Origin: Fibrobacteria bacterium
GTDB taxonomy: Bacteria; Fibrobacterota; Chitinivibrionia; Chitinivibrionales; FEN-1185
Assembly: GCA_037447435.1 (NCBI GenBank)
Contig: JBBIGR010000025.1
Location: forward strand, 1 to 64,000
DNA: 64,000 nt
Direction: 5' to 3'
Below are positions 44,387 through 64,000 of this stretch, piece after piece (positions within the stretch are counted from its first letter, which is position 1; every line of letters starts with the position of its first letter). The position numbers were made by a program, and so were the translations under genes. The notes below the pieces were generated by a model, which saw only the letters and a program-made list of their open reading frames with translations, was not told the origin of the DNA and ran no database searches.

Positions 44387-44392
44387 AATATT

Positions 44393-45139: not shown

Positions 45140-45174
45140 TGTTTTACCTTTGAAAATAATGATGTCTTATATAT

Positions 45175-46527
45175 TTATTCCTTCAAAGCAAGCATTTCGA
45201 TTTTAAGTTCCGGATAATTGTTCGGGAAATAAAACGCGATGCTGCCGGTGGCCTTGATTTGTTGCCAGAAATCGCCCTGCTGGTCGAGGCTGAAATACAC
45301 AAAACCCGGTTTTGTGGAAAGCCCCTGCGGCGGATGCATGATATGGCGCAATGGCAGTCCCGGCATAGCCGAGGATATGAGCAAATCGAGTTTGTTGCGA
45401 GAGCACATTTTTATCCGCTGCAAAACGCCGACCACCAGTTCTTTTTCCTGCACTTTTGCGGAAACGCCGAGGAAAAACTTTGCAACGGATAATAATTTTT
45501 CGTCGGGCACTTTGCAGACAAACGTGGACTGATTGACCGTTTCGATGGGAACGGGAACGCAACCGGCCTGGATATCGGCCTCGAGCACCGTGCGGATAGC
45601 CTTGACAAGCAAAACATAGGTCGATGCGACATTCGCATGATCGTACCGAGGCAGGTTCTTGAGCGATATCTCGGAACTGAACGTGCAGAGCGAGCCGGCA
45701 AATTGGGTAAGCGTGCAGAACACGTCGAACGGATGCAAATGCGGAAACGAATGAAAGTGCGTGAGCAACGGCGTATACGTGTTCAGCGTTTGTAAAAGCC
45801 GGAACGGAGTTTCCTCGCCGCTCGCAAAATCGGCAAATCCGCCTTCGACCTGTTTTCGGCCCGCAGACAGGGCGGTTATCTTTGCAAGAAGGAATTCGAG
45901 CAGCGACCGTAAAAGATTGAGCACCGGCTGCGATGCCCCGATTTGCAAGAGGGGCGGCACAAATGCGGTTGAAATTTCGACCTGACCGCTCTGATTGCGG
46001 ACAAGCTTTGCTATTTGGAAAGACGCATGACTGTCGAGCGCTTCGTCTCCGAATAAAATCACGAAATTAAATGCCCCGGTTTCGATGTCTTTTCTTTGCG
46101 TACCGATGACTTCGTCGACTACCGGCACGACACGGGAACGGTACCGGGAAGCGGATGCCCCTTCCATCGTATTGGGAACGACGTTTGTTTTTCCTTCTAT
46201 TATAAGGGGCAACCCTAAAAACACGTCCAACGATTGCTGATCGGGTGTAAAATGATCGGCAAACGAACGTGCATTCGGGGCTGCGTCCTGCTTGGGCATG
46301 GAGAACACCACGCCGTCGGGCAATATGCCGCTACAGCGAAGAATTGAAATGAGGCCGTTGCTGACTGCGTCTTTATCGATTTCGAGCTCCGAAACGCCAA
46401 ACAGATAGGGCGACGCGGCATTTCGGACGGCATTGATTGCGTTTAGAACATAGCGTTCAGCCTGCTGAAAATGATGAGGCTGAAGAAACATGCCTTCTTT
46501 CCAAACAACTTTGCTGTTACTGAGCAC
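45175..46527 (-). CDS. tssK: Type VI secretion baseplate subunit TssK
   Basis: KVVWKEGMFLQPHHFQQAERY, GILPDG, FVPP, HPF, YDH, PGLPLRH, GFVYFSL, W...G.IAFY; GTG start after AGAGG. Confidence 0.93.
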   Translation of the reverse strand: MLSNSKVVWKEGMFLQPHHFQQAERYVLNAINAVRNAASPYLFGVSELEIDKDAVSNGLISILRCSGILPDGVVFSMPKQDAAPNARSFADHFTPDQQSLDVFLGLPLIIEGKTNVVPNTMEGASASRYRSRVVPVVDEVIGTQRKDIETGAFNFVILFGDEALDSHASFQIAKLVRNQSGQVEISTAFVPPLLQIGASQPVLNLLRSLLEFLLAKITALSAGRKQVEGGFADFASGEETPFRLLQTLNTYTPLLTHFHSFPHLHPFDVFCTLTQFAGSLCTFSSEISLKNLPRYDHANVASTYVLLVKAIRTVLEADIQAGCVPVPIETVNQSTFVCKVPDEKLLSVAKFFLGVSAKVQEKELVVGVLQRIKMCSRNKLDLLISSAMPGLPLRHIMHPPQGLSTKPGFVYFSLDQQGDFWQQIKATGSIAFYFPNNYPELKIEMLALKE

Positions 46528-49542: not shown

Positions 49543-49608
49543 CCGTATTCCGCCCTATTTGCCTGAGCGCAAAGGACAATCGCCTATTTGTGAAATAAAG
49601 TGCATAAC

Positions 49609-49626
49609 TTGTGAAAAAAAGCACAA
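49609..49626. promoter_or_regulatory. Putative Rex (NADH/NAD+ sensor) operator
   Basis: TTGTGAAAAAAAGCACAA fits the 18-bp TTGTG-N8-CACAA palindrome; extra TTGTGAAA half-sites at 49588 and 49661. Confidence 0.6.
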
Positions 49627-49725
49627 TATTATTGTAGAAATTGCGAAAATATATTTTTTATTGTGAAAAAAAGTATATATTAATGTTTCTATTAGTAATT
49701 AGACTTGCCACAAGGAGTAGGCTTC

Positions 49726-51735
49726 GTGAGCCATCATTTAAGCACTTGTACGTTCTGCGGTGTCGGCTGCGGGCTATTTTTAGAGTCGCAAAATAATGAA
49801 ATTACGGGCGTTTACCCCAGCATGTCGCATCCTGCCAATCACGGACGCTTATGCGTTCGCGGTTGGCATGTGCATGAAGTCGCCAGTTCGCCCGACCGGT
49901 TGCGCACTCCGCTTCTTCGCAAAAACGGCGAACTTGTTCCCGTGTCGTTTAACGAAGCATATGATGCGATAGCGGAAAACCTTTCGGTCATCAAGCGCAA
50001 ATACGGACCGGATGCCATAGGCTTTTTGGATTCCGCCCGCGTATCGAACGAAGACGGGTATATTTTGCAAAAATTCGCCCGCAGTATCATCGGGACGAAC
50101 AACGTAGATCAAGGCACCAGCTTTTACCGTACGACAACAGTCAACGTCCTTCGTGAAATGCTCGGCATTGCGGCAGCAACGAATCCTCTCGAAGATGTTT
50201 TTGCCAGTAAAGCCATACTACTCAATGAAATCGACATCGGCCAGCAATTGCCCACTCTGGGCGGCGCAATCATTCGCGCTCATCTTTCGGGGACTAAACT
50301 TATCGTCGTCGGGTCCCGAAGGCACCGCGTGACCGAACATGCGGACATATTCCTTAATATCAAGCCCGGTACCGAACTGTTCCTGTATGCCGCAATGGCC
50401 AAAATCATCGTAGACCGCGGCCTCATGGATCTTGAGTTTGTACGAAACCGCTGTAAAGGCTATGAGAATTTTCTGCAAAACATCCAATCGTTCGATATTT
50501 TGCATGCCGCACACCGGTGCGACGTAGCGCCCGCGCTGATCGAGCAAGCGGTTCTTATGTATTGCCAAAACAGCCCCGGCATGCTCTTATACCCTTCGGC
50601 GACCGCAGACATCGGCGAAGATGCATTGTCGGCAATGGTCAATTTGGTATTGCTCAGCGGCAACCTTGGGAAAAAGGGCGCGGGAATAATTCCGCTTTCG
50701 GAACACAACAATGCTCAGGGCGGATGCGACATGGGCGTCATGCCCTGTTGTTTGCCCGGGTACGTGAAAGTGACCGATGCGACCAAGCGTCTCGCAATCG
50801 AAAAGCGCTGGAACGCCGCAATACCGCAAAGTCAAGGAAGGGATGCGGCGGAAATACTTGATTCGCTGTCTCCCGTCAAGGCGTTGTGGCTCGACAGGCA
50901 CAACCCCGTTGTTTCGGCATCGTACAAAGACGCCGTCGAACAAATCAAAAAAATGGAATTTGTCGTTTTACAGAATTTGTTCCTCACGAAAACGGCCCAA
51001 TTCGCGCACGTGGTTCTGCCTGTAGCCGCCTACGGCGAAGAGGAAGTAACCTTTACAAGTACGGAACGGCGCGTTCAGTTGGCGGTTAAAGCGATAGAGC
51101 CGCCTCAGGGTTTCGTTTCCGCCTGGCAACAGGTCGTCGAGGTCGCAAACCGCATGGGCGCGAAATGGGAGTACGCATCTTCACGAAACGTATTGGCCGA
51201 AATAGCCGACGTCGTACCCGATTACAGCGGTATTTCTGCAGAAAATTTATGCCGCGATTACGGCCGGCAATGGCCGTGCACGCAAGATCTTCCGCTCGGC
51301 ACGCCGGTGCTTTTTACTGAAAGTAAAGGAAGTCGTTTATTCTCGTTTGCCACCGTGTCGATGACCCCTCCCGCAGCGACCGTTAACGGTGATTTCCCGT
51401 TCGCACTTACCTTTGGCCATTCGCTGTATTATTGGCATCAAAACACGCTCGTTCGGCACAGCGAGACGCTCAAGCGCGAATACGGAATACTTCTTTTGGA
51501 TTACCCGGAAGGATTTGTAGAAATCAACGATGAAGACGCGAAGGTCTTGACGATACGCGACAACCAGAAAATAAAGCTTGTTTCGCCCCAAGGATCGGCG
51601 CAAACGGTTGCGCGCGTCACCTCCGAAGTCAGAAAAGGAAGCATTTTCATCCCATTCTTTTTACAGGACGTGATGAAAACAATCGGCAAGGATAACGTGA
51701 AAAACACTTTTGTGCGGATCGAGAAGGCAGGTTGA
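49726..51735 (+). CDS. Formate dehydrogenase alpha (FdhF)-like molybdopterin-oxidoreductase-fold protein lacking catalytic residues
   Basis: GTG after AAGGAG; CTFCGVGC...LC [4Fe-4S] motif; QKFAR...GTNNVD, NNAQGGCDMG, FTSTERRVQ FdhF motifs; the Sec/Cys-His position reads Tyr-Arg. Confidence 0.85.
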   Translation: MSHHLSTCTFCGVGCGLFLESQNNEITGVYPSMSHPANHGRLCVRGWHVHEVASSPDRLRTPLLRKNGELVPVSFNEAYDAIAENLSVIKRKYGPDAIGFLDSARVSNEDGYILQKFARSIIGTNNVDQGTSFYRTTTVNVLREMLGIAAATNPLEDVFASKAILLNEIDIGQQLPTLGGAIIRAHLSGTKLIVVGSRRHRVTEHADIFLNIKPGTELFLYAAMAKIIVDRGLMDLEFVRNRCKGYENFLQNIQSFDILHAAHRCDVAPALIEQAVLMYCQNSPGMLLYPSATADIGEDALSAMVNLVLLSGNLGKKGAGIIPLSEHNNAQGGCDMGVMPCCLPGYVKVTDATKRLAIEKRWNAAIPQSQGRDAAEILDSLSPVKALWLDRHNPVVSASYKDAVEQIKKMEFVVLQNLFLTKTAQFAHVVLPVAAYGEEEVTFTSTERRVQLAVKAIEPPQGFVSAWQQVVEVANRMGAKWEYASSRNVLAEIADVVPDYSGISAENLCRDYGRQWPCTQDLPLGTPVLFTESKGSRLFSFATVSMTPPAATVNGDFPFALTFGHSLYYWHQNTLVRHSETLKREYGILLLDYPEGFVEINDEDAKVLTIRDNQKIKLVSPQGSAQTVARVTSEVRKGSIFIPFFLQDVMKTIGKDNVKNTFVRIEKAG

Positions 51736-51736
51736 T

Positions 51737-52825
51737 ATGCGCGGACGTCTGATCCATAAAAACGACCTCATCAAAATCGTCGAAGCGCTTATGAAAACGC
51801 ATCGAGTCGTGGCCCCTTTTGCCGGACGCGGGCGCGACAGTTATTTCGACGTCGTAAACAACGAAAACAAAAACAGCATCGCGATACATGTCGCAAACCC
51901 GTATTACCCGCCTAAGCGATACGTGTTTCCGCATATGCATAAGCTCATGACGATCGAAGCCGGGGCCTCTCCCACGGTCGAAACTAATTGCGTTGAGGAA
52001 AAAGTCGCGGTTTTCGGCATGCGGTCTTGCGATGTGGAAGGCATTTTCCATTTGGACCGGTTCTATCTGGGCAATGCGTTTAGGGACCCCTACTACGAGG
52101 AATTCCGAAAAAATTTATTTATTGTCAACATGGTCTGTACCGACACGAAAACCGATGTCGACGACGATTGTTTCTGCGTCTGCGCGGACGCGGGCACTGC
52201 CGCAAAAGCCCATTTTGATTTGCAGCTTATTGATTTGCACGATGAAAGCGGCGATTTTTTGGCAGTTGCCGGATCTATCGGCGGCGAAGAGTTGCTAGCG
52301 CAGCCTTTTTTCCATCAAGCAACCCCAGCGCATGTCGCCCGCAGGAAAAGCGTACTTGCCGAAGTTCGCAAACGGTTCAAAACCGCGACAGGCTGGTATT
52401 CCGCAGTCACCAAATACATCACCCGCGGCGGCGAAATAAAAGACCAAACCTGGAAAAAGATCGGCGACCGTTGTCTTGAATGCGGTGCATGCAGCTATGT
52501 ATGCCCGGCCTGCACCTGTTTTACCGTAACCGACAGACCAGCGGGCGACAATACGTTTAATCGCGTCCGTGTATGGGACGCCTGCGCCTTGTCGGGGTTC
52601 ACCCGCATGGCGGGCGGCCACAATCCTCGCCGCGCCGTGCATGACAGACGCAACAGACGTTTCTTCCGTAAATTGAGCCATTATTTCATACAGCGCGAAT
52701 TCACCATGGCATGCGTTGGCTGCGGACGATGCGTTCGAGTTTGTCATGGCGATATCGGCATGCCTGCAGTTGTTGAAATCCTACGGCGGGACACTGCCGC
52801 TCTTTTGCAACAGGAGAAAGCATGA
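51737..52825 (+). CDS. AsrA/sulfhydrogenase-beta-like 2x[4Fe-4S] subunit
   Basis: PPKRYVFP, FGMRSCD, DPYY, CLECGACSYVCPACTCF, R.WDAC...FTRMAGGHNPR, CVGCGRCVRVC. Confidence 0.85.
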   Translation: MRGRLIHKNDLIKIVEALMKTHRVVAPFAGRGRDSYFDVVNNENKNSIAIHVANPYYPPKRYVFPHMHKLMTIEAGASPTVETNCVEEKVAVFGMRSCDVEGIFHLDRFYLGNAFRDPYYEEFRKNLFIVNMVCTDTKTDVDDDCFCVCADAGTAAKAHFDLQLIDLHDESGDFLAVAGSIGGEELLAQPFFHQATPAHVARRKSVLAEVRKRFKTATGWYSAVTKYITRGGEIKDQTWKKIGDRCLECGACSYVCPACTCFTVTDRPAGDNTFNRVRVWDACALSGFTRMAGGHNPRRAVHDRRNRRFFRKLSHYFIQREFTMACVGCGRCVRVCHGDIGMPAVVEILRRDTAALLQQEKA

Positions 52826-53667
52826 GCTGCAAAAACGGGAACATTTACGAACCGTCGATTGTCGTGCTCGACGAAATTCGCGATGAAATCAAAGACGTAA
52901 AAACGTTTTTCTTTCATTTTGACGATCATGACAAAGAAACCCAATTTCGTACATTCATGCCGGGGCAGTTTGCCATGGTATCGATTTTCGGTGCCGGCGA
53001 AATTGCAATATCGCTGCCGCCGAGCCCCACTGAAGACCGGCTTTTCTTTACAACCCGTAAAGTAGGCAGCGTCACCAATGCGATGCATTCGCTTAAGGTC
53101 GGAGACAAATTCGGCGTACGCGGGCCTTACGGCAACGGTTTTCCTATGAAGCAATATGAAGGCCGGAACCTCATCATCGTTGCGGGCGGCATCGGGCTTA
53201 TCCCGTTGCGGTCGGTCATCATCTACGCGCTCCACAACAGGAGCAAATTCGGGAAAATTCAGGTTTTTTACGGTTCGAGGACCCCGAGCGATCTAATGTA
53301 CACGGAAAACCTTTCCCAATGGCAAGAGGACAAAGGATTCGAATGTTATTTGACGGTGGATAAAGCGGACGATTCCTGGAAACGAAATGTCGGCGTTGTC
53401 GGAAGTTTGTTCAAATTGCCCGGCGTTGAAATGCCCGTGAACAATACGACCGTCTTCGTTTGCGGTCCGCCTATCATGTTCCGCTTCGTCCTTGCCGACT
53501 TGCTCAACATGGGATTTAAAGACCAAAACATGGTTTCGACCTTGGAGCGGTACATGAAATGCGGCGTGGGCAAATGCGGCCATTGCTGCATCGGTGTTGC
53601 GTACGTTTGCACCGACGGACCGGTATTCACCCTTGAACAGATCCGAAAGCTCGGCGAAGTGATATGA
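52822..53667 (+). CDS. AsrB/sulfhydrogenase-gamma-like FAD/NAD(P)-binding [2Fe-2S] subunit
   Basis: PGQFAM, RGPYGNGFP, AGGIGLIPLR, CGPPIM, LERYMKCGVGKCGHC...C.DGPVF; ATGA overlap with the previous gene. Confidence 0.9.
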   Translation: MSCKNGNIYEPSIVVLDEIRDEIKDVKTFFFHFDDHDKETQFRTFMPGQFAMVSIFGAGEIAISLPPSPTEDRLFFTTRKVGSVTNAMHSLKVGDKFGVRGPYGNGFPMKQYEGRNLIIVAGGIGLIPLRSVIIYALHNRSKFGKIQVFYGSRTPSDLMYTENLSQWQEDKGFECYLTVDKADDSWKRNVGVVGSLFKLPGVEMPVNNTTVFVCGPPIMFRFVLADLLNMGFKDQNMVSTLERYMKCGVGKCGHCCIGVAYVCTDGPVFTLEQIRKLGEVI

Positions 53668-54182
53668 CAGACGATATTTGTTTGGCTCTTGGAAAAATAT
53701 GCGCGGGCAAAACCGCGTTTTGCGCAATCGGCAACTCCGACCGCGCCGACGACGGGGCCGGCATGGTACTTGGTACCCTTTTAGAGCGGGCTGGCGTTGA
53801 CAATGTATTTTTCGGCGGCATGACCCCGGAAAAAGTCCTGCCAACGATACGCGACAAAGGCTTCGACTCGATAGTTTTTCTTGACGCAGTGGAAATCGGC
53901 GCAGAAGCGGGGGCATTCGCGTTTTTGGATGCCATGCAAATCGTTTCGATGTTTCCCCAGGTTTCCACGCATAAAATGTCTTTGGCAACCCTTGCCGCAA
54001 TCGTACGCGATACGACGCAGTCGCAAGTCTGGCTTATCGGCATTCAGCCGCAATCCATTGCAATAAGCAGCTCCGGCATAAGCACCGGAGTCTTTAACAC
54101 TATAGAAATGCTGTCGCGTTGCATTGCAGACACCCTGACCGCAATGCCTTCTGCGACGAATAAGGAATACGTATGCAAATGA
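53664..54182 (+). CDS. hycI: Hydrogenase maturation endopeptidase (HycI-like)
   Basis: IGN.DRADDGAG, TPE, DAV, STH, IGIQP motifs; ATGA overlap. Confidence 0.85.
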   Translation: MTDDICLALGKICAGKTAFCAIGNSDRADDGAGMVLGTLLERAGVDNVFFGGMTPEKVLPTIRDKGFDSIVFLDAVEIGAEAGAFAFLDAMQIVSMFPQVSTHKMSLATLAAIVRDTTQSQVWLIGIQPQSIAISSSGISTGVFNTIEMLSRCIADTLTAMPSATNKEYVCK

Positions 54183-56053
54183 ACCCGCTCGGCATTATTC
54201 ATACCGCCATGCTATTACTCATGGCAGGATCCGTTCTGGTATTATTATTATCCGGCAATAGAAAATTGGCCGGATGGGTGACGTTCATCATTACCCTTGC
54301 TGCAAGTACGGCTACGCTGTGCGCATCGGTCTCGGTGATTTTAAGCGGTCCGTGCGAACCCGTGATCATCAAAGCCTTTTCCCTGTGGGGTTCGACACTG
54401 CGGTTTTACGTTGACGGACTTGGCGCGGTGTTTTTGGCCCTTATTTCCATTGTGTCCACAATGGCCGCATTGTATTCGATTTCCTATATGGACCATTACC
54501 CCGATTATCATTTGGGAAGATATTATCCCTGGTTTCTTTTGTTCATTGCCGGCATGTACGGCATTGTGACCGTTACGGACACCATGGTGTTTTTCTGCGT
54601 TTTCTGGCAGCTTATGACCATTCCCTCGTTTGCGCTTATCCGTTTCGAATATAAAAAGCCCGAAAACGTCAAGGCCGCAAATAAATACCTTATTATAATG
54701 GAAATCGCCTGTCTGCTTATCATGGCAGGATCCGCGGTGCTTGTTTACACCGGACATATTCCTGAACGTATGGCGGGATTGCCGCGATTCGACTTTGACA
54801 CGTTGCGTAATCAGATCCTTTCGGAAGGAATGCATCCCCACGCACTTTTCCCGGCATTGCTTCTCATGCTCATAGGCTTCGGCATTAAAGCCGGTATTTG
54901 GCCGTTCGGGCTTGCCTGGCTCCCTGATGCACATCCGGCGGCGCCGTCGCCGGTAAGCGCGTTACTTTCGGGCGTCATGATAAAAACCGGCATTTACGGA
55001 TTGATACGGACGTTTTTCTGGCTTGTTCCCAATGCGTCGGTGCGCGGTTTTTCTCCGGCTTTTTGGGGCGGTCTGTTGGCAATTGTCGGAACGGTTACTT
55101 TGGTCGTGGGGACATTCCAGGCCTTGAAACAGGAACAAACCAAAAGGCTGTTGGCTTTTCATAGCATCGGTCAAGTCGGCTATATCGTTTTAGGCCTCGG
55201 TGCAAGCCTCATGTTGCTTCCGCTCGGACCTGTTGCCGGAACGCTGGCGACAATCGCATTGCTGGGCGCATTATTTCACACAATCAACCATGCGCTGTTT
55301 AAAAGCCTGTTGTTTTTCAATGCCGGCACCATTCTGAAAGCAACGCATACGCAAGACTTAAACAAACTCGGCGGCCTCATGCAATTCATGCCGCTGACCG
55401 CAGTCACCTGTCTGATCGCCTCATTTTCCATAGCCGGTGTTCCGCTGTTCAACGGTTTTGCCAGCAAATGGAGTATTTACACGGCGACAATTTTAGGCGG
55501 TAAACATGCGGGAATCCTTGCGCTGTGCGGACTCTTCGGCATTTTGACAAGCGCGCTCACACTGGCCTCGTTTATGAAATTTTTCGGCATGACTTTTTTA
55601 TCGAGACCAAGCACACTTGTAAAGAAACAAACGGAAAACGGCAAGATCGTCGAGGCCGGAGCGCTTATGCAAATACCCCAGGTCGTTCTTGCTTTTGTTT
55701 GTGTTATTTTAGGCCTTGTTCCGGGTTTTGCCTACTTGTTTTTAGACAAGGCCATTGCATCGGGCCCGGCAGGAGTTTCGCAATTCCTTCCCCGATTGCA
55801 CGTTGAGGCAAATACCCTTTTTGCAGGAATTTCGATCGGCAATGGCGCCGCGTTGTTCGTCCCGCTTGCGATAGCAGGGTCGATCCTGTTGCTCTTTGCA
55901 TTGGCATTCCTTATTTCAAAGTTGGGCAATGCGACCCGCAAAACCGGCGACGTCTGGTTGTGCGGTTACGATGCCGAAGCCGACATTCATCGCTATGGCG
56001 CGCATAATTTATATGGCGAAGTCAAACATTTATTCAGCCAAAAACACAAATAG
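54173..56053 (+). CDS. hycC: Hydrogenase membrane antiporter-like subunit (HycC/HyfB, NuoL/M/N family)
   Basis: Many TMs; GFGIKAG, WLPDAHPAAPSPVSALLSGVMIK, KRLLAFHS, NHALFKSLLF, PLFNGFASKW. Confidence 0.88.
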   Translation: MQMNPLGIIHTAMLLLMAGSVLVLLLSGNRKLAGWVTFIITLAASTATLCASVSVILSGPCEPVIIKAFSLWGSTLRFYVDGLGAVFLALISIVSTMAALYSISYMDHYPDYHLGRYYPWFLLFIAGMYGIVTVTDTMVFFCVFWQLMTIPSFALIRFEYKKPENVKAANKYLIIMEIACLLIMAGSAVLVYTGHIPERMAGLPRFDFDTLRNQILSEGMHPHALFPALLLMLIGFGIKAGIWPFGLAWLPDAHPAAPSPVSALLSGVMIKTGIYGLIRTFFWLVPNASVRGFSPAFWGGLLAIVGTVTLVVGTFQALKQEQTKRLLAFHSIGQVGYIVLGLGASLMLLPLGPVAGTLATIALLGALFHTINHALFKSLLFFNAGTILKATHTQDLNKLGGLMQFMPLTAVTCLIASFSIAGVPLFNGFASKWSIYTATILGGKHAGILALCGLFGILTSALTLASFMKFFGMTFLSRPSTLVKKQTENGKIVEAGALMQIPQVVLAFVCVILGLVPGFAYLFLDKAIASGPAGVSQFLPRLHVEANTLFAGISIGNGAALFVPLAIAGSILLLFALAFLISKLGNATRKTGDVWLCGYDAEADIHRYGAHNLYGEVKHLFSQKHK

Positions 56054-56065
56054 GAAACCGTATTC

Positions 56066-57760
56066 ATGAAAGCCCGTGAAATTGTTGACCAAATAGACAA
56101 GCGTTTTGCCGGCGCAGTGGTGAGAACGGATATTCCGCGAGACAACCGGCTTATCGTATACATCAACCGCGAGTCTCTTCGGGAAGTCGCGAATTACATT
56201 TTCCGGGAATGCGATGCGCGATATTGCGTTGGTATCGGCATCGACGACCGGGATGTTTCGGGCGGGTACCTCGTATCGCACGACTTCGCATTCGACAAGG
56301 GCAACGTGCTTCTCAGCCTTATGGTTCCCATGCCGGAAACAGACCCGACGCTGCCGAGCATTTCGGACCTCATCCCGGCCGCGGGATGGAGCGAACGCGA
56401 AATGCGGGACCTCGTCGGCATCACGCCGACGGGAATGGTAAATCCCAAACGGCTCGTTTTATCGGACGGATGGCCCGAAAACCTTCATCCGCTCCGTAAA
56501 GATGTCCCCTGGAACATCAAACCCAAAGATTATGATCCGACAAAAACATATCCCTTCGACGCAGCGCCGCCCAATACGACGGTCGTGCCGTTCGGGCCGT
56601 TCCACCCCACTCTTGACGAACCAGAACATTTCAGACTGTTCGTCGAAGGCGAAGTCATACGCGGCTGCGAATACCGCGGGTTTATGGTGCACAGAGGCAT
56701 CGAAAAACTTGCCGACTCGGTAATGACCTATAATGAAATTCCCATGCTTGCAGAGCGAATCTGCGGAATTTGCGGCTGCGTGCATGCGGTCACCTATGCC
56801 CAGGCGGTCGAACAGGCGGCTGCAATAACGCCGGCGCCCCGTTCGGAATTCATCCGCACCATCATGCTTGAAATAGAACGACTGCACAGTCATATGCTAT
56901 GGGTGGGATTAGCTTCGCACATCCTTGGATTCGATACGCTTTTCATGCAGGCTTTCCGCATTCGCGAACCCATCATGTGGATATCGGAAAAAATCACCGG
57001 CAACAGAAAGACGTACGCGTTGTGCCTGATCGGCGGTGTCCGCTGGGACATTACGCCCGAGCTGAAAGCCGAGCTCAACGCGGTGCTTAACAAACTCGAA
57101 AAAGAATGGACCGGCGCCTATAACGCCATTAAAGGCGATAAAAACATACAGGCCCGTACGCGCGGCATCGGCGTTGCGGACAAGCAACTTGTCAAGGACC
57201 TGGGGCTTTTGGGCCCAATCGCACGATCCGCGGGCGTTGCGATCGACGCACGCCGCGATCATCCGTACGCCGCGTATGACAAAGTGGAATTCGACGTCGT
57301 GACCGCCGACACCGCCGATGTGTGGGGCCGGATCGTGGTCCGCACGCTCGAGGTGTTCGAATCGATTCGCATAATCCGTCAATGCCTGAACATCATGCCC
57401 GACGGCCCGATCGCATGCGAACCGCAAAGCGAATTGCCCAGCCACCGCATCGGCCTATCGTCGGTGGAGGCGCCGCGCGGAGAAGCGCATCATTTCGTGG
57501 TGACCGGCGAAAACAACAGGCCGCATCGCTGGCGCGTTCGCGCGCCGACGTATCAGAACCTTCAGGGAATTCCGGCAATGATCAAGGATCAGCGGCTTTC
57601 CGATATGACCATAACCTTAGGAAGCATCGATCCTTGTTTCTCCTGCACGGACCGAATGGAAATCGTGGACATAAAAACCGGCACAATGAAAATCTGGCAC
57701 CCGAAAAACGATATCGTCAATAAGAAGGACATAAAGGTCGTTGTGAGGAAACACGTATGA
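56066..57760 (+). CDS. hycE: Group 4 [NiFe]-hydrogenase large subunit (fused NuoC-NuoD type, HycE/HyfG)
   Basis: ERE..DL.G and HPLRKD (NuoC part); GPFHP...EP.HFRL..EGE, HRGIEK; intact Ni ligands RICGICG and DPCFSCTDR plus a cleavable C-terminal tail. Confidence 0.93.
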   Translation: MKAREIVDQIDKRFAGAVVRTDIPRDNRLIVYINRESLREVANYIFRECDARYCVGIGIDDRDVSGGYLVSHDFAFDKGNVLLSLMVPMPETDPTLPSISDLIPAAGWSEREMRDLVGITPTGMVNPKRLVLSDGWPENLHPLRKDVPWNIKPKDYDPTKTYPFDAAPPNTTVVPFGPFHPTLDEPEHFRLFVEGEVIRGCEYRGFMVHRGIEKLADSVMTYNEIPMLAERICGICGCVHAVTYAQAVEQAAAITPAPRSEFIRTIMLEIERLHSHMLWVGLASHILGFDTLFMQAFRIREPIMWISEKITGNRKTYALCLIGGVRWDITPELKAELNAVLNKLEKEWTGAYNAIKGDKNIQARTRGIGVADKQLVKDLGLLGPIARSAGVAIDARRDHPYAAYDKVEFDVVTADTADVWGRIVVRTLEVFESIRIIRQCLNIMPDGPIACEPQSELPSHRIGLSSVEAPRGEAHHFVVTGENNRPHRWRVRAPTYQNLQGIPAMIKDQRLSDMTITLGSIDPCFSCTDRMEIVDIKTGTMKIWHPKNDIVNKKDIKVVVRKHV

Positions 57761-58671
57761 CATCAATACTAACGATTCTGAGCGCACTATGCAACATAGC
57801 GCTTGCTTTGGTTTTGGCCCCGCTGTTTGAAGGCGTGGTACGGAAAATAACCGCAATTGTCCAGTCGCGTAAAGGGCCGCCCGTTTTTCAGCCTTATATG
57901 GACATAGCCAAATTGCTTATCAAGGACGATATCGAGGTCGGCAGCGTTCCGATTATGCAACGATTCAGCGCTTTGTTGTCTCTTTCCGTTATGCTTTGCG
58001 TGGTATTATTCGTGCCGATCACCGGGCACAGCCCGTTTTCGCGAAATGCGGATTCGATTCAAATGATTTATCTTTTGTCGCTTGCGGGCATCGCAGTCCT
58101 GCTTGCAGGGTTGTCTGCGGGGTCAACGTATTCCATTATCGGGATGAGCCGTGAAATGATGGCGATGATGACCCTTGAACCGCTGTTTGCCGTCACGGTT
58201 GTCATGGCTGCGGTAAAATCGGGTTCACTCCGCCTGGATGCGGTATTCTTCGGCGCCGTATATCAGGGCGGCATTTCTTCCGGCCTTTTGATGCTCGGAG
58301 TGATGTTATTCGCGTTGCAGGCGTTTGTGGGTCGTGCGCCGTTCGACGTCACCGAGGCTGAAACGGAAATCATGGAAGGACCGCTCATCGAGTATTCGGG
58401 GCCCAAACTCGCAATGTTTAAATATTCGCACATGATAAAACTCTTCGTGTACGCCGGACTGTTCACCGCGCTCTTTATTCCGCATATCGCAACCGGACTT
58501 CGAATTCTGGACGTTTTGATTTTTATCGCATGCCAAATCGGAATCGTCCTTTTGGTCACACTGGTTGCCGCGACGCATGCCCGTTATCGCATCGATCAGG
58601 TTGTTCGCTATTATGCAATGTTGTTTTTTGCAGCGATAGGATGCCTGTCGCTTTCTTTGTTCGGACTGTAA
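57757..58671 (+). CDS. hycD: Hydrogenase membrane subunit (HycD/HyfC, NuoH family)
   Basis: RK..A..QSRKGPP..QPY.DI.KL, SRE, PFDVTEAETEIMEGPLIEYSG. Confidence 0.9.
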   Translation: MTSILTILSALCNIALALVLAPLFEGVVRKITAIVQSRKGPPVFQPYMDIAKLLIKDDIEVGSVPIMQRFSALLSLSVMLCVVLFVPITGHSPFSRNADSIQMIYLLSLAGIAVLLAGLSAGSTYSIIGMSREMMAMMTLEPLFAVTVVMAAVKSGSLRLDAVFFGAVYQGGISSGLLMLGVMLFALQAFVGRAPFDVTEAETEIMEGPLIEYSGPKLAMFKYSHMIKLFVYAGLFTALFIPHIATGLRILDVLIFIACQIGIVLLVTLVAATHARYRIDQVVRYYAMLFFAAIGCLSLSLFGL

Positions 58672-58681
58672 GGAGACGACA

Positions 58682-59206
58682 ATGTCATTTGTAAGCAAGA
58701 TAAAGGAAGCAATATTGTGCCTGAGAGCCGGAAGAGTGACGCTTTCCTATCCGGTCGACCCCAAGCCGGTTCCGGAACGCTTTCGCGGACGGCCGGTATT
58801 TGATCCGCTCAAATGCGTCGGTTGCGCGGGATGCGCGAATAATTGTCCGGCCCGGGAAATCCTGATCACGGACAAATGCCAGGAAATACGTGTTGTCAAG
58901 TATATCGGCCGTCGCTGCACCTATTGCGGACGATGCGCCGATTTGTGCCCGGAAAAAGCGATCACCATGAGCAAGGAATACGAAAACGCCTCGGAAAACA
59001 TCCGCGATATTTCGCAGGACCTTGACATTTGGATGGGAACGTGCCAACGCTGCGGACGTTGCTTTAAAGCGGGCGGCGCATTGGACCAGCTTATGATGAA
59101 GGGATACCGCGAAGACGATTGCGAAGGGGAATTGTGGATATATAAATCAAGGGCATATCTTGACTCGGACAAAGTTACCGACGACATTGAAATAACCGTG
59201 GACTAG
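58682..59206 (+). CDS. hycF: Hydrogenase 2x[4Fe-4S] subunit (HycF/HyfH, NuoI family)
   Basis: T..YP, FRGRP, CVGCAGCANNCP, CTYCGRCADLCP, extra CQRC. Confidence 0.9.
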   Translation: MSFVSKIKEAILCLRAGRVTLSYPVDPKPVPERFRGRPVFDPLKCVGCAGCANNCPAREILITDKCQEIRVVKYIGRRCTYCGRCADLCPEKAITMSKEYENASENIRDISQDLDIWMGTCQRCGRCFKAGGALDQLMMKGYREDDCEGELWIYKSRAYLDSDKVTDDIEITVD

Positions 59207-59255
59207 CCTCATGCTTCGCATGGGGTAACATATATATTTGCTAACCGGAGTGCGC

Positions 59256-59792
59256 ATGCTGCAAAATTTTTTGAAAAAATATTTCGGACGTTCGCTGTGG
59301 GTATATCACTGCAATAGCGGCGGATGCAATGGATGCGATATCGAAGTTGTCAACGTTTTGACTCCCTATTACGATGTCGAACGTTTCGGTATCAAGCTTG
59401 TCGGGTCTCCGCGCCATGCCGATGTGATGCTATTCCAGGGGCCTGCCGGTCTTGCAACCGCTCCTGCTTTAAAACGCGCCTATGATGCGATGCCCAATCC
59501 CAAGCTCGTGTTTGCCATCGGGTCTTGCGCCTGCGGCGGCGGAGTCTGGTACGATTCGTACAATATCATCGGCCCCGTCGAGAAAGTCATTCCTGTCAAC
59601 TATTACATTCCCGGCTGCCCTCCTCGCCCGGAAGCGATCGTGTACGGCGTGGCATTGGCATTAAATCTTGTCAAGAAGAACGCGGTGCCGACAAAATACC
59701 ATCCCGTCGAGTTGCCCATAGTACGGTATCATCCGGATGAAATCGTGGCCATCAACGGTTGGGACACGTATGAAAAGCTGGAGAAAGTGTAA
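59256..59792 (+). CDS. hycG: Hydrogenase small subunit (HycG/HyfI, NuoB family)
   Basis: GGCNGCDIE, YDVERFG, SPRHAD, GSCACGGG, IPGCPPRP. Confidence 0.92.
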   Translation: MLQNFLKKYFGRSLWVYHCNSGGCNGCDIEVVNVLTPYYDVERFGIKLVGSPRHADVMLFQGPAGLATAPALKRAYDAMPNPKLVFAIGSCACGGGVWYDSYNIIGPVEKVIPVNYYIPGCPPRPEAIVYGVALALNLVKKNAVPTKYHPVELPIVRYHPDEIVAINGWDTYEKLEKV

Positions 59793-59797
59793 AGGAC

Positions 59798-60286
59798 ATG
59801 CCGACTCGCCCCGTTGGAAAAATTGCGTTATTGTTTTTGGGAACCATAGCTTCATTTTTGTTTATTACCGGCTGCAGCGCACCGGTAATTCCCCTCTGGT
59901 CGAAAGTCCTCATTAACGGAAAAGAACAGCAACTGGCAATAGATACGCGTTGCGGGTCTTTTTCCATTACAAAGCTCACCGAAGGCGACGGCCCCTTCTT
60001 TGCCCTGCGCGCAAAAAACGATAATGTCCGGGCAAACCACGAACTATTAAAAGCAACGGCATTCCGGAACGGCAAAGCTTTAGAAATGCACAGGCATGAA
60101 AAAAAAGACAGTCTGGATGACTTGTCGTTCACAACGTTTCCCGGAATGCCCGGTGTCATTTTTTTCGGTTTTGGACATACGGCCGCGGATTCGTTTCAGA
60201 TCGATATTTTGGATTGTTTTTCGAATCACGGCTCATACTGCTATGACTCCACCATTACCATTGCCCCCTTCGTCTCAAAGAAATAA
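59798..60286 (+). CDS. Hypothetical lipoprotein
   Basis: Lipobox ITGC after a hydrophobic stretch; starts 5 nt after the hycG stop with AAGGA RBS. Confidence 0.55.
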   Translation: MPTRPVGKIALLFLGTIASFLFITGCSAPVIPLWSKVLINGKEQQLAIDTRCGSFSITKLTEGDGPFFALRAKNDNVRANHELLKATAFRNGKALEMHRHEKKDSLDDLSFTTFPGMPGVIFFGFGHTAADSFQIDILDCFSNHGSYCYDSTITIAPFVSKK

Positions 60287-60573: not shown

Positions 60574-63500
60574 ATGGCTAAAAAATTTATTACTTGCGAT
60601 GGTAACTATGCTGCTGCGCATATAGCGTATATGTTCAGCGAAGTTGCCGCAATTTACCCGATCACCCCGTCTTCCACCATGGCAGAATATGTGGACGAAT
60701 GGGCATCTCAGGGACGAAAAAACATTTTCGGCTCTGTCGTTAAAGTCACTGAAATGCAAAGCGAAGCAGGCGCGGCCGGTGCGGTACACGGTTCCTTGCA
60801 AGCCGGTGCCTTGACCACGACTTATACAGCTTCCCAGGGTTTGCTCCTGATGATTCCGAATATGTATAAAATCGCCGGTGAATTGCTTCCCGGTGTTTTC
60901 CATGTTTCTGCACGATCGCTTGCAGCACAGGCTTTATCGATTTTCGGCGACCACAGCGACGTCATGAGCACACGTCAGGCAGGTTTTGCAATGCTCGCAA
61001 CAGGCTCGGTCCAGGAAATAATGGATTTGGCCGCTGTCGCGCATTTGGCATCCATCAAGTCGCGCATTCCGTTCCTTCATTTCTTCGACGGTTTCCGTAC
61101 TTCGCACGAAATCCAGAAAATTGAAGCTGTCGATATGGCCGATCTCGACAAACTGCTTGACAAAAATGCAGTCCAGGCGTTCCGCGACAATGCGCTGAAT
61201 CCCGAACATCCCGTAACGCGCGGAACAGCTCAGAACCCCGACATCTACTTCCAGGCACGCGAGGCGGCAAACCTGTTTTACGATGCAGTGCCGGACATCG
61301 TGGCTCATTATATGGAAGAACTCGGCAAGGTTACCGGACGCAAATATCAGCCGTTCGACTATTACGGCGATCCCAATGCAGAGAATGTCGTTGTGGCAAT
61401 GGGTTCCGTTACCGAAACAACCCGTGAAGTCGTCGATGCATTGATTGCAAAAGGACAAAAGGTCGGATTGCTTGCGGTTCATTTGTATCGTCCGTTCTCG
61501 GCAAAATATTTCTTCAAAGCCATGCCGGCATCTGTCAAACGCATCACCGTGCTCGACCGTACCAAAGAACCGGGCGCAAACGGCGAACCGTTGTACCTTG
61601 ATATTAAAGACTTGTTCTACGGAAAGCAGAACGCCCCGCTCATCGTTGGCGGACGCTACGGACTTTCATCAAAAGACACGACACCTGCGCAGATTTTCTC
61701 GGTTTTCGAGAATATGGCCATGAAGGAACCTAAAAACGGTTTCACCGTCGGAATCACCGACGACGTGTCGTTCTTATCGCTTCCTATTCTTCCTGAAGTC
61801 AATGTTGTTCCCGCAGGCACGTTCCAGGCCAAGTTTTACGGCCTGGGTTCGGACGGTACCGTCGGGGCGAACAAGAACTCCATCAAGATCATCGGTGAAA
61901 CCACCGACAAGTACTGCCAGGCATATTTCGCCTACGATTCCAAGAAATCGGGCGGCGTCACGATTTCGCATCTGCGTTTCGGCGACACCCCTATCCGTTC
62001 GACCTATTTGGTTACCACTCCCGACTTTGTCGCATGCCATGTTCTTTCGTATCTCGACAAATACGACATGCTCAAAGGTTTGAAAAAGGGCGGCACATTC
62101 CTGCTCAATACCATTTGGAGCGAGGAAGAAACCAAAAAGAACATTCCCGACTACATGAAGAAATATATGGCAGAAAACGATATCAAGTTCTATATCATCA
62201 ATGCCACGAAAATCGCCGAAGATCTTGGTTTGGGCAATCGCACCAACACCATCATGCAGGCAGCGTTCTTCAAAATTTCCAACGTCATCGACTATACGCT
62301 TGCTGAAAAAGAAATGAAGAAGATGGTCGTGAAGTCGTATGCCAAAAAAGGCGAAGAAATAGTGACCATGAATAATGCCGCCATCGACCGCGGTACGGAA
62401 TTCACCAAAATCGAAATCCCCGGCGACTGGAAAAACCTTGCCGTTGCCAAGGCCGTTGGGTATGGCGATGTTCCCGAATTCATCAGCAGCTTCGTAATGC
62501 CCGTGACAAAGCTCAAAGGCGACGACCTGCCGGTAAGCATTTTCAAAGGCCGCGAAGACGGTACGCTTCCTGCCGGTACATCGGCATATGAAAAGCGCGC
62601 CATCGCGGTGAATGTTCCCGAATGGATTCCTGAGAATTGCATCCAGTGCAACCAGTGCGCATACGTTTGTCCGCATGCCTGTATCCGTCCGTTCCTGTTT
62701 AACGAACAGGAATTGAAAGGCGCACCGGCCGGAACAAAAACGCTTCCCGCCATGGGTCCCGCACTCAAGGGTTTGCAGTTTAAAATCCAGGTAAGTACGC
62801 TCGACTGCTCCGGTTGCGGCAACTGCGCGGAACGCTGCCCAGCCAAGACCAAAGCGCTTGTCATGAAGCCCATTGCTTCACAGGCAGTCGAGATCGAACG
62901 CTGGAACTACATTGCAAAGAACGTTTCCTACAAAGACACGTTGGTTCCCAAAGACGCAAACGTCAAGAACTCCCAGTTTTCACAGCCGTTGTTCGAATTT
63001 TCGGGCGCATGCGCGGGCTGCGGCGAAACACCGTATATCAAGCTCATCACCCAGATGTTCGGCGACCGTATGATGATCGCCAATGCGACGGGTTGCACCT
63101 CGATTTACGGCGGATCTTCACCGTCGTCACCGTATACCAAAAACGCGGCAGGAAAAGGCCCGGCTTGGGCAAACTCCCTGTTCGAAGACAATGCGGAATA
63201 CGGTTTCGGTATGGCCACCGGCGTTAGCCAGATTCGCGATCAGATCGCCAATTACATGACCGGCGCAATGGACAGCGTCAAGCCGGAAACAAAAGAAGCG
63301 TTCACCAGCTGGCTCGCAGATAAAAACGATGCGAACAAATCCAAGATCGCATCGGAAAAAGTGCTTGCGGCCCTCAAGAACGAAAGCGGCAAATTCGTTG
63401 ACGAAATTCTCAAGCTCAAGCAGTATCTTGTCAAGAAATCCATATGGATTTTCGGCGGAGACGGCTGGGCGTACGATATCGGCTTCGGCGGTTTGGACCA

Positions 63501-64000
63501 TGTTGTCGCCAGCGGCGCGGATGTAAACATCCTCGTTGTGGACACCGAAGTGTATTCCAATACCGGCGGGCAGGCTTCCAAGTCCACTCCTGTCGCCGCT
63601 GTTGCGAAATTCGCGGCATCGGGCAAACGCATCCGCAAAAAAGATCTCGGTATGATCGCCATGAGCTACGGCTACGTGTATGTCGCACAGGTAAATATGG
63701 GCGCCAACCAGAGCCAGTATCTCAAAGCAATCCGCGAAGCCGAAGCTTACGCGGGGCCGTCTCTTATCATCGCGTACGCACCGTGTATCAATCACGGCTT
63801 CCGCAATATGGGAAATTCGCAGATGCAGGCCGAGATGGCCGCAGAATGCGGTTACTGGAGCATGTACCGTTACAATCCGCTTCTGGAAAACGAAGGAAAG
63901 AACCCGTTCCAGCTTGATTCGAAAGAACCGAACTGGGCGAATTTCCAGAAATTCCTCCAGACCGAAGTACGCTACACATCGCTTTCAAAGGCTTTCCCCA
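60574..64000 (+). CDS. nifJ: Pyruvate:ferredoxin (flavodoxin) oxidoreductase, single-chain type, 3' end outside the window
   Basis: Read directly from the DNA (absent from the ORF track): MAKKFITCDGNYAAAH..YPITPSS, EMQSEAGAAG, FFDGFRTSHE, GGRYGLSSKD, GLGSDGTVGANK, CIQCNQCAYVCPH, FEFSGACAGCGETPY, GGDGWAYDIG; GAAGGGAG RBS. Confidence 0.96.
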   Translation, partial: MAKKFITCDGNYAAAHIAYMFSEVAAIYPITPSSTMAEYVDEWASQGRKNIFGSVVKVTEMQSEAGAAGAVHGSLQAGALTTTYTASQGLLLMIPNMYKIAGELLPGVFHVSARSLAAQALSIFGDHSDVMSTRQAGFAMLATGSVQEIMDLAAVAHLASIKSRIPFLHFFDGFRTSHEIQKIEAVDMADLDKLLDKNAVQAFRDNALNPEHPVTRGTAQNPDIYFQAREAANLFYDAVPDIVAHYMEELGKVTGRKYQPFDYYGDPNAENVVVAMGSVTETTREVVDALIAKGQKVGLLAVHLYRPFSAKYFFKAMPASVKRITVLDRTKEPGANGEPLYLDIKDLFYGKQNAPLIVGGRYGLSSKDTTPAQIFSVFENMAMKEPKNGFTVGITDDVSFLSLPILPEVNVVPAGTFQAKFYGLGSDGTVGANKNSIKIIGETTDKYCQAYFAYDSKKSGGVTISHLRFGDTPIRSTYLVTTPDFVACHVLSYLDKYDMLKGLKKGGTFLLNTIWSEEETKKNIPDYMKKYMAENDIKFYIINATKIAEDLGLGNRTNTIMQAAFFKISNVIDYTLAEKEMKKMVVKSYAKKGEEIVTMNNAAIDRGTEFTKIEIPGDWKNLAVAKAVGYGDVPEFISSFVMPVTKLKGDDLPVSIFKGREDGTLPAGTSAYEKRAIAVNVPEWIPENCIQCNQCAYVCPHACIRPFLFNEQELKGAPAGTKTLPAMGPALKGLQFKIQVSTLDCSGCGNCAERCPAKTKALVMKPIASQAVEIERWNYIAKNVSYKDTLVPKDANVKNSQFSQPLFEFSGACAGCGETPYIKLITQMFGDRMMIANATGCTSIYGGSSPSSPYTKNAAGKGPAWANSLFEDNAEYGFGMATGVSQIRDQIANYMTGAMDSVKPETKEAFTSWLADKNDANKSKIASEKVLAALKNESGKFVDEILKLKQYLVKKSIWIFGGDGWAYDIGFGGLDHVVASGADVNILVVDTEVYSNTGGQASKSTPVAAVAKFAASGKRIRKKDLGMIAMSYGYVYVAQVNMGANQSQYLKAIREAEAYAGPSLIIAYAPCINHGFRNMGNSQMQAEMAAECGYWSMYRYNPLLENEGKNPFQLDSKEPNWANFQKFLQTEVRYTSLSKAFP

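What the first reader, a model, noticed from the sequence alone, without database searches (positions are those of the whole stretch)
49726..59792. Candidate new complex: NAD(P)H-linked, formate-independent FHL-like membrane hydrogenase
Seen: nine tightly coupled genes (ATGA overlaps at 52822, 53664, 57757) in the order pseudo-FdhF, AsrA-like, AsrB-like, HycI, HycC, HycE, HycD, HycF, HycG. The NiFe ligands are intact and there is one antiporter-like subunit. There is no HycB/HyfA, AsrC, formate channel or group 3b small/large subunit. Known: HycCDEFG is the FHL-1 core; AsrA/AsrB-type pairs serve as the NAD(P)(H) diaphorase of group 3b hydrogenases and anaerobic sulfite reductase. Inference: a hybrid in which the diaphorase replaces formate as electron input or output. 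It would couple NAD(P)H/H2 interconversion to ion translocation, either ion-gradient-driven H2 evolution from NADH or H2-dependent NAD(P)+ reduction. It parallels complex I with a different N-module. I cannot exclude that similar operons were noted in comparative surveys.
Basis: partly seen in the sequence, partly recalled or inferred. Interest (0 to 1): 0.88.

Follow-up and report, generated by a model that had tools for sequence, protein, structure and literature searches.

The report
Membrane hydrogenase with dead formate dehydrogenase
Nine conserved genes encode a membrane-bound nickel-iron hydrogenase whose formate-dehydrogenase-like subunit has lost its catalytic residues, in a genome where no molybdenum-cofactor genes were found, so it likely swaps electrons between NADH and hydrogen gas instead of using formate, and probably pumps few or no ions.

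Summary
The nine genes, their order, the three ATGA overlaps and the NiFe ligands are present. The order is kept in 25 of 26 long metagenome loci and in genomes labelled with six phylum-level names.

Formate independence is strongly supported. The FdhF-like subunit lacks Sec/Cys, His and Arg in 81 of 81 family members. In the 99.6%-complete host genome no MoaA, MoaC, MoeA, FdhD, PFL or formate channel was found.

AsrB carries an Asp (62 of 62) that points to NADH. HycF has four extra Cys that could replace HycB.

The concept is not new. Related larger clusters were described in silico in 2019 (PMC6349859) and 2026 (PMC13582414), and this scan noted the family four times before on other DNA. 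No assay was found in nine literature searches. Verdict: new variant of a known kind.

The parts
49726..51735 (+). Pseudo-FdhF, 669 aa. Keeps one [4Fe-4S] ligand set (C8, C11, C15, C43). Sec140->Tyr134, His141->Arg135, Arg333->Ser325, Gly334->Glu326. Likely a cofactor-less scaffold.
   Evidence: the only PF00384 protein found in the genome
51737..52825 (+). AsrA/SHI-beta-like FeS subunit, 362 aa, with 16 Cys invariant in 67 of 67 (ligands for three or four clusters, inferred)
   Evidence: 9nez_B, E 2e-32
52822..53667 (+). AsrB/SHI-gamma-like FAD/[2Fe-2S]/NAD-binding subunit, 281 aa. Asp180 of TVD is in 62 of 62 and aligns with the NADH-specificity Asp of cytochrome b5 reductase.
   Evidence: (9nez_C, E 3.5e-58)
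53664..54182 (+). HycI-type maturation endopeptidase
54173..56053 (+). Single antiporter-like subunit (HycC/HyfB type). TM5 Glu is replaced by Gln146; TM7 K239, TM8 K271 and TM12 K432 are kept.
56066..57760 (+). Fused NuoC/D-type NiFe large subunit (HycE, 39% identical to E. coli) with both CxxC motifs and the DPCxxCTDR end
57757..58671 (+). HycD/NuoH-like membrane subunit; E-channel acids kept (E133, E141, D197, E200, E202, E204, E212)
58682..59206 (+). HycF/NuoI-like 2x[4Fe-4S] protein with four further conserved Cys (C66, C121, C124, C127), a possible third cluster
59256..59792 (+). HycG/NuoB-like small subunit with four cluster Cys

Best explanation
The nine genes encode a group 4 [NiFe]-hydrogenase with a catalytically dead FdhF-like subunit and an AsrA/AsrB flavoprotein pair, which likely assemble into one membrane-anchored enzyme that likely interconverts NADH/NAD+ and H2 without formate and probably translocates few or no ions. 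Inferred wire: NADH -> FAD and [2Fe-2S] (AsrB) -> FeS clusters (AsrA) -> extra cluster and two [4Fe-4S] (HycF) -> [4Fe-4S] (HycG) -> NiFe (HycE). The pseudo-FdhF would be a cofactor-less scaffold with one [4Fe-4S], like the Mo-less domain of complex I NuoG (established knowledge). The inferred role is redox balancing in a fermenter: an NADH valve when H2 is low, and an NAD+-reducing uptake enzyme when H2 is high. Shown: gene content, conservation, residue losses, and the failure to find Moco and formate genes in the host. Inferred: assembly, wiring, coenzyme choice, direction and weak coupling.
For: (1) No family sequence (0 of 81, 71 distinct at 90%) has Cys at the Sec140 position, His at 141 or Arg at 333; Gly334 is Glu in 81 of 81. 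(2) The host genome (99.57% complete) gave no match to MoaC, MoeA, MoaA, FdhD, PFL or formate channel families (the positive controls rang). The pseudo-FdhF is its only molybdopterin-fold hit, while HypD is present. Two more carriers, G058 (same contig as G047's L017; 95% complete) and G043 (completeness not given), show the same pattern. (3) The order is conserved, and pairwise distances of the three input genes track HycE in 29 loci (Spearman 0.84, 0.89, 0.82, against 0.73-0.89 for the core genes; kin are not independent). (4) AsrA and AsrB have SHI beta and gamma as their best solved relatives. (5) AsrB TVDKA aligns to rat b5 reductase TVDKA, where D239T switches NAD to NADP (PMC5817062, table row; the residue numbering is partly recalled). 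SHI gamma aligns poorly there. (6) TM5 is Gln in 46 of 46 family copies covering the site and in 3 of 3 sister-lineage one-antiporter operons. It is Glu in 6 of 6 antiporters of two three-antiporter relatives, in 66 of 68 control hits and in 8 of 8 other host hits. (7) NADH->H2 costs +18 kJ/mol at 1 bar and yields only -5 at 10 Pa. (8) The host's soluble group 3b cluster is a relic without a large subunit, while congener G002 has it intact; this is one case only.
Against: There is no structural or biochemical test of assembly. TM7, TM8 and TM12 lysines and the HycD E-channel are well kept, so the membrane arm is under selection. MrpA E113Q and NuoL E144Q kept near-normal Na+ handling in one study, although NuoL E144Q was reported to cut complex I activity (PMC4938563, passages). 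HycC E135A did not lower H2 output of FHL (PMC9474812, passages), which shows the Glu is dispensable for turnover and says nothing on pumping. The 669-aa pseudo-FdhF has many invariant residues, more than a bare spacer might need. Four of nine related carriers have MoaC, so the absence of Moco genes is not family-wide. The host has other NADH/H2 routes: four [FeFe]-hydrogenase-family hits and three RnfD/NqrB-type hits.
Confidence: 0.5

Rival explanations
1. The same complex, but tightly ion-coupled: an ion gradient drives H2 evolution from NADH, or H2-dependent NAD+ reduction pumps one ion.
For: The E-channel acids and central-axis Lys/His are conserved. The best PDB match of the antiporter is MbhH. 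About 18 kJ/mol is available for H2->NAD+ at 1 bar, near the cost of one ion. Three loci carry a second antiporter copy.
Against: The TM5 Glu is lost across the clade, second copies included. The arm is of the FHL-1 type, and for FHL-1 energy conservation lacks substantiation (PMC13277316) and no path from the E-channel to the P-side was seen (PMC9474812). The driving force vanishes near 100 Pa H2.
Confidence: 0.25
2. A three-way bifurcating or confurcating enzyme: the pseudo-FdhF branch takes a third partner (ferredoxin or an unknown substrate), as proposed for related clusters.
For: Proposed from AlphaFold models in PMC13582414. The pseudo-FdhF cluster ligands and the adjacent Arg45 are invariant, with a conserved insertion. 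A PFOR gene lies 0.8 kb downstream.
Against: No Mo-cofactor route was found in the host, so a Mo-based substrate site is very unlikely there. An FNR-type FAD is not a known bifurcating flavin (recalled). PFOR was not among the recurring flank clusters of related loci, and congener G005 has kinase followed by a PFOR paralogue without the operon. Ferredoxin docking on the cluster is not excluded.
Confidence: 0.15
3. Pseudo-FdhF/AsrA/AsrB form a separate soluble module, co-transcribed with but not bound to a ferredoxin-dependent hydrogenase.
For: In L147, L155 and L165 the three genes lie after the hydrogenase genes as a block. L141 has the pseudo-FdhF without AsrA. Group 3-type large subunits lie upstream in a few loci.
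Against: Linkage and co-divergence are near-perfect. No HycB/CooF or other input subunit was found in 94 loci. HycF carries clade-specific extra Cys.
Confidence: 0.07
4. An unusual formate hydrogenlyase, as database names imply.
For: Best HMM is Fdh-alpha, below its cut-off. JGI names several homologues formate dehydrogenase.
Against: The Mo ligand and catalytic residues are lost in 81 of 81. No Moco, FdhD, PFL or formate channel genes were found in the host.
Confidence: 0.02

Closest known systems
Group 4b clusters with Cys/Sec-less Fdh plus SHI-beta/gamma homologues (PMC13582414, Takano et al. 2026; read: passages, parts 2-3 of 6, supplement PDF, two searches of Table S1)
   Same: Group 4 NiFe core, Fdh without the Mo ligand, SHI-beta/gamma pair, proposed NAD(P)H link; in silico only.
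   Different: Their typical cluster has HyfE, several antiporters and several ferredoxin subunits, and they propose NADPH and a third substrate. Here there is one antiporter with TM5 Gln, no HyfE and no HycB-like gene, an NADH-type Asp, and a host with no Moco genes found. Their Table S1 has no Fibrobacterota, Spirochaetota or Verrucomicrobiota row, and the CGICGC rows retrieved continue VHS, not VHA as in the window. Whether the lineages are sisters was not tested with their sequences.
'Enigmatic' group 4 hydrogenase of Saganbacteria RX5A (PMC6349859, 2019; read: passages and Supplementary Note 5)
   Same: FdhF-like protein with one [4Fe-4S] that could not be classed as FDH, plus AsrA and AsrB, suggested as an oxidoreductase module akin to NuoE/F.
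   Different: It has CooF and two Mrp antiporters and was called Mbh-like; loss of the formate catalytic residues was not stated in what was read.
E. coli formate hydrogenlyase 1 (FdhF-HycBCDEFG, PDB 7Z0S/7Z0T)
   Same: Two-subunit membrane arm, fused HycE (39%), HycF, HycG, HycI, same C-D/E-F-G core; a broken TM5/TM7 Glu-Lys pair in both (HycC lacks the Lys, this one the Glu).
   Different: No HycB, dead FdhF, added AsrA/AsrB, a different HycF metal site, hycE before hycD.
Group 3b soluble hydrogenase I of P. furiosus (PDB 9NEZ) and AsrAB of anaerobic sulfite reductase
   Same: Beta- and gamma-type subunits.
   Different: No alpha/delta or AsrC partner; joined to a group 4 membrane core; NADH-type Asp.
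Respiratory complex I
   Same: Homologous NuoB/C/D/I/H and an antiporter-like subunit; a cofactor-less Mo-enzyme fold next to an NADH module, like NuoG (established knowledge).
   Different: An FNR-type FAD module instead of NuoEF; NiFe/H+ acceptor instead of quinone; one antiporter instead of three.

Membership tests
Group 4 [NiFe]-hydrogenase | Large subunit with both CxxC Ni ligands | tested here: met
   C233/C236 in 38 of 38, C524/C527 in 37 of 38
Group 4 [NiFe]-hydrogenase | NuoB/I/H-like and antiporter-like partners | tested here: met
Group 4 [NiFe]-hydrogenase | Maturation genes (hyp, endopeptidase) | tested here: met
   HycI in the operon; HypB, C, D and F found on C7; HypA not found with the E. 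coli query
Group 4 [NiFe]-hydrogenase | HydDB subgroup assignment (4a or 4b) | not testable with these tools
   In a quick tree of 119 rows, 38 family rows form one clade (SH-aLRT 99) next to E. coli HycE/HyfG (93), with a long-branch warning and no 4b references
Energy-converting (ion-pumping) hydrogenase | Intact TM5 Glu/TM7 Lys pair in the antiporter-like subunit | tested here: not met
   Gln at TM5 in 46 of 46
Energy-converting (ion-pumping) hydrogenase | Measured ion translocation | not testable with these tools
   needs proteoliposomes
Formate hydrogenlyase (FHL-1/FHL-2) | FDH with Sec/Cys-His-Arg and Mo-bisPGD | tested here: not met
   no Moco genes found
Formate hydrogenlyase (FHL-1/FHL-2) | HycB/HyfA connector | tested here: not met
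   no hit in 94 loci; one weak unlinked hit on host C5
Group 3b NAD(P)H hydrogenase | Beta and gamma diaphorase subunits | tested here: met
Group 3b NAD(P)H hydrogenase | Soluble group 3 alpha/delta subunits | tested here: not met
   the large subunit is group 4 type; a congener's HydA matches it at only 22%
Dead-Fdh/SHI-beta-gamma group 4b clusters (PMC13582414) | Cys/Sec-less Fdh with SHI-beta/gamma next to a group 4 core | tested here: met
Dead-Fdh/SHI-beta-gamma group 4b clusters (PMC13582414) | HyfE-like subunit, multiple antiporters and multiple ferredoxin subunits | tested here: not met
   HyfE hit only in L218 among 94 loci; a single antiporter in the window

The most novel reading that the evidence does not exclude
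A minimal hydrogen-evolving 'complex I': NADH enters at an FNR-type flavin module mounted on a molybdenum-free formate-dehydrogenase relic, and a single rewired antiporter uses the ion gradient to push electrons uphill to H2 without ferredoxin or bifurcation. It would be an independent replay of how NuoG arose, and a new mode of reverse electron transport in wetland and sediment anaerobes.
Probability: 0.2. Interest if true: 0.85.

Novelty: new variant of a known kind. Interest (0 to 1): 0.58.

Why it matters
These operons carry formate dehydrogenase names in databases, so formate metabolism is likely over-called in genomes of uncultured anaerobes. I found no assay of an NAD(P)H-linked group 4 hydrogenase in my searches. 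The family comes as a natural pair, a three-antiporter form with Glu and a one-antiporter form with Gln, that mirrors FHL-2 and FHL-1. That makes the old question of whether a two-subunit membrane arm pumps testable with a clean substrate. It is also a living example of a Mo enzyme turning into a scaffold, the step invoked for NuoG.

Tried and rejected
No RNA holder was listed for the operon; this is not evidence either way. The promoter and terminator scan was at chance level (9 found against 10.9 expected). A 301-genome search with the pseudo-FdhF profile at E 1e-200 rang nowhere, even in a known carrier, and is uninformative; repeated with AsrA it gave 7 of 301. The ESM Atlas only returned molybdopterin oxidoreductase clusters. 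The Caldithrix paper (PMC5317091, passages), the peatland Acidobacteria preprint (10.1101/197269, passages) and T. onnurineus Fdh3 (PMC8965080, passages) did not describe this system in the passages read. The SHI structure paper was not found, so its cluster layout is not cited. Flanking-gene clustering gave mostly shadow ORFs; hypA/hypB occur next to 5 of 94 loci. The apparent divergence of L015 and L019 is due to frameshifts, probably assembly errors; their broken genes fell out of the residue counts. Rejected: active FDH, Asr sulfite reductase (no place for AsrC), a split group 3b operon, and a chance cluster. Supplement files 13-29 of PMC6349859 were not searched and figures of both key papers could not be seen, so a one-antiporter cluster may be drawn there.
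Full report
OBSERVATION. The nine ORFs exist as described between 49726 and 59792. Pfam and NCBIfam give: a molybdopterin oxidoreductase fold, below the Fdh-alpha cut-off; sulfhydrogenase beta/AsrA; sulfhydrogenase gamma/AsrB; a HycI protease; a HyfB-type antiporter; a fused NuoC/D NiFe large subunit; and NuoH-, NuoI- and NuoB-like proteins. The three stated ATGA overlaps are present, and no gap exceeds about 50 bases. The Hyc-like subunits match E. coli Hyc/Hyf proteins at 29-46%.

CONSERVATION. Anchored on HycE in species genomes, 9 of 80 loci were close relatives (67-80%). All nine show the same order as far as their contigs reach, with hycI not detected in L019. They are labelled Spirochaetota, Lentisphaerota, Verrucomicrobiota, Acidobacteriota, Fibrobacterota, Planctomycetia and a deltaproteobacterium; six phylum-level names if the first two PVC labels are counted as one. 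The other 71 loci had 28-39% identity and other contexts. Anchored independently on the pseudo-FdhF in metagenomes (best 80 of 509 confirmed), AsrA follows in 65 of 66 loci with room, and the seven scored downstream genes are in order in 25 of 26 long loci, 24 of those 25 with hycI. Variants: a second antiporter copy (L108, L116, L136), hydrogenase genes placed upstream (L147, L155, L165), and a lone pseudo-FdhF (L141). The large subunits of 38 carriers form one clade in a quick tree. The operon is sporadic. None of 5 congeners has an orthologous HycE, and their orthologous kinase gene is followed by other genes. Of 200 other genomes of the host's phylum only G058 showed an orthologous AsrA piece. 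Horizontal spread is inferred. The host phylum is inferred to be Fibrobacterota, because G058's contig has the same length and gene positions as L017.

THE FDH IS DEAD. Against E. coli FdhF, the Sec140 position is Tyr, Phe or His in 81 of 81 family sequences, His141 is never kept and Arg333 is Thr, Ala or Ser. Gly334 is always Glu, and several other positions I recall as pterin contacts (Arg581, Asp478, Asn662, Lys679) are lost or variable. The four cluster cysteines are kept in 80 of 81, one being truncated. The host genome (99.57% complete, 2% contaminated) gave no match to MoaA, MoaC, MoeA, FdhD, pyruvate formate-lyase or formate channel families, with controls ringing, and this is its only molybdopterin-fold hit. 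An intact 669-residue gene kept in a cell with no detectable Moco pathway must work without Mo/W. G058/G047 and G043 repeat the pattern; 4 of 9 related carriers do have MoaC. Other degenerate FdhF lineages appear among 50%-identity representatives.

THE INPUT MODULE. The only PDB match of AsrA at E 1e-5 and the best match of AsrB are SHI beta and gamma. AsrA has 16 invariant Cys (67 of 67), and AsrB keeps the [2Fe-2S] and CGPP motifs. Asp180 is in 62 of 62 and aligns with the b5 reductase TVDKA Asp, whose D239T change shifts NAD to NADP (PMC5817062, table row). NADH is therefore more likely than the NADPH proposed in print; one residue is not proof. HycB is absent, but HycF carries CxxCxxC (C121, C124, C127; 36 of 36) plus C66 (35 of 36). 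E. coli has only the first two of these and uses two other Cys for a mononuclear site. C66 is present in the three one-antiporter sister operons and absent in the two three-antiporter ones. I infer a third cluster that could link AsrA to the core.

THE MEMBRANE ARM. HycD keeps its E-channel acids, and the antiporter keeps K239 (39 of 42), K271 and K432 (42 of 42). The TM5 Glu, called strictly conserved in PMC9474812, is Gln in 46 of the 46 copies covering it (47 aligned). It is Glu in 66 of 68 control hits and in 8 of 8 other host hits. Of six Acidobacteriota-phylum loci fetched, three are a sister lineage with the one-antiporter order and Gln. Two have dead Fdh, AsrAB and three antiporter-like genes, all with Glu, and one is unrelated. 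Loss of antiporters thus coincides with loss of the Glu, mirroring FHL-1, whose HycC lost the partner Lys and for which energy conservation lacks substantiation (PMC13277316). Mutagenesis is mixed: NuoL E144Q was reported to cut complex I activity, but E144Q and MrpA E113Q hardly changed Na+ handling (PMC4938563). Energetics: NADH (1:1) to H2 is +18, +1, -5 and -10 kJ/mol at 1 bar, 100, 10 and 1 Pa. One ion at 150-200 mV costs about 14-19 kJ/mol (my arithmetic). Outward pumping on NADH oxidation is therefore excluded at these values; only gradient-driven H2 evolution or pumping during H2 uptake at high pressure remain.

HOST CONTEXT. The host also has an Ech-like cluster (C66), a group 3c-like hydrogenase (C10), four [FeFe]-family hits, three RnfD/NqrB-type hits, Ehr-like clusters (C37) and a Nuo-like cluster (C5) (cluster names inferred). 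Next to its hyp genes lies a decayed group 3b operon: hydB, a fused hydG/hydD relic, and no large subunit. Congener G002 has it whole. The membrane enzyme may have replaced the soluble NAD(P)H hydrogenase; this rests on one genome.

MECHANISM AND RIVALS. Most likely (0.5) it is a membrane-anchored NADH:H2 oxidoreductase with weak or no ion coupling. An ion-coupled version gets 0.25, a three-way bifurcating version 0.15, separate modules 0.07 and a formate enzyme 0.02. That it is an NAD(P)H-linked, formate-independent complex in some form is about 0.75-0.9.

PRIOR ART. PMC6349859 (2019) described a Saganbacteria group 4 hydrogenase with an unclassifiable FdhF-like protein, AsrA, AsrB, CooF and two antiporters. 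PMC13582414 (2026) reported group 4b clusters with Cys/Sec-less Fdh and SHI-beta/gamma homologues and proposed bifurcation. Nine paper searches (five aimed at this system) showed no biochemical study and no description of the one-antiporter Gln form; subscription journals are mostly outside the library. This scan had noted the family in four other genomes; those notes are not independent evidence.

VERDICT. The feature is real and conserved, and it is a new variant of a known kind. What this analysis adds is the Moco-less host, the NADH-type Asp, the candidate extra HycF cluster, the Glu-to-Gln change tied to membrane-arm reduction, and the decayed group 3b operon. Interest 0.58.

Noticed in passing
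G000:C7:90358-98146: Decayed group 3b hydrogenase operon: hydB, a fused hydG/hydD relic and no hydA, followed by hypB, F, C, D and a hypE-like ORF; intact in congener G002 (L203).
   Followed up: yes
window 40700-46527 (-): Type VI secretion genes tssK, tssL and tssM, all above NCBIfam cut-offs, divergent from a PEGA protein and a Ser/Thr kinase.
   Followed up: partly
window 60574-64000 (+): Pyruvate:ferredoxin oxidoreductase-like ORF (named from its sequence) just downstream of the operon; congener G005 has the kinase followed directly by a 50%-identical paralogue.
   Followed up: partly
window 59798-60286 (+): 162-aa ORF starting 6 bases after hycG, lipoprotein-like N-terminus, no Pfam or NCBIfam match; not seen in the five congener loci or L207.
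   Followed up: partly
window 49543-49725: A+T-rich leader with repeated TTGTGAAA(A) words, perhaps a regulator site; not tested.
   Followed up: no
L025-L090 (Nitrospirota): Complex I-like loci in which an FdhF/NuoG-like gene lies several kb downstream of nuoCD and before nuoH; probably nuoG, not examined.
   Followed up: no
P0123-P0270: Many further FdhF-like clusters lack the Cys/Sec-His-Arg set, so loss of FDH catalysis may have happened several times.
   Followed up: no
G000:C10:45500-50400 (L206): Group 3c-like NiFe hydrogenase beside an HdrA-like ORF and a maturation protease (named from sequence).
   Followed up: no
L014, L093, L105, L111, L112, L218: A soluble group 3-type hydrogenase gene lies just upstream of the operon in a few loci.
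   Followed up: partly
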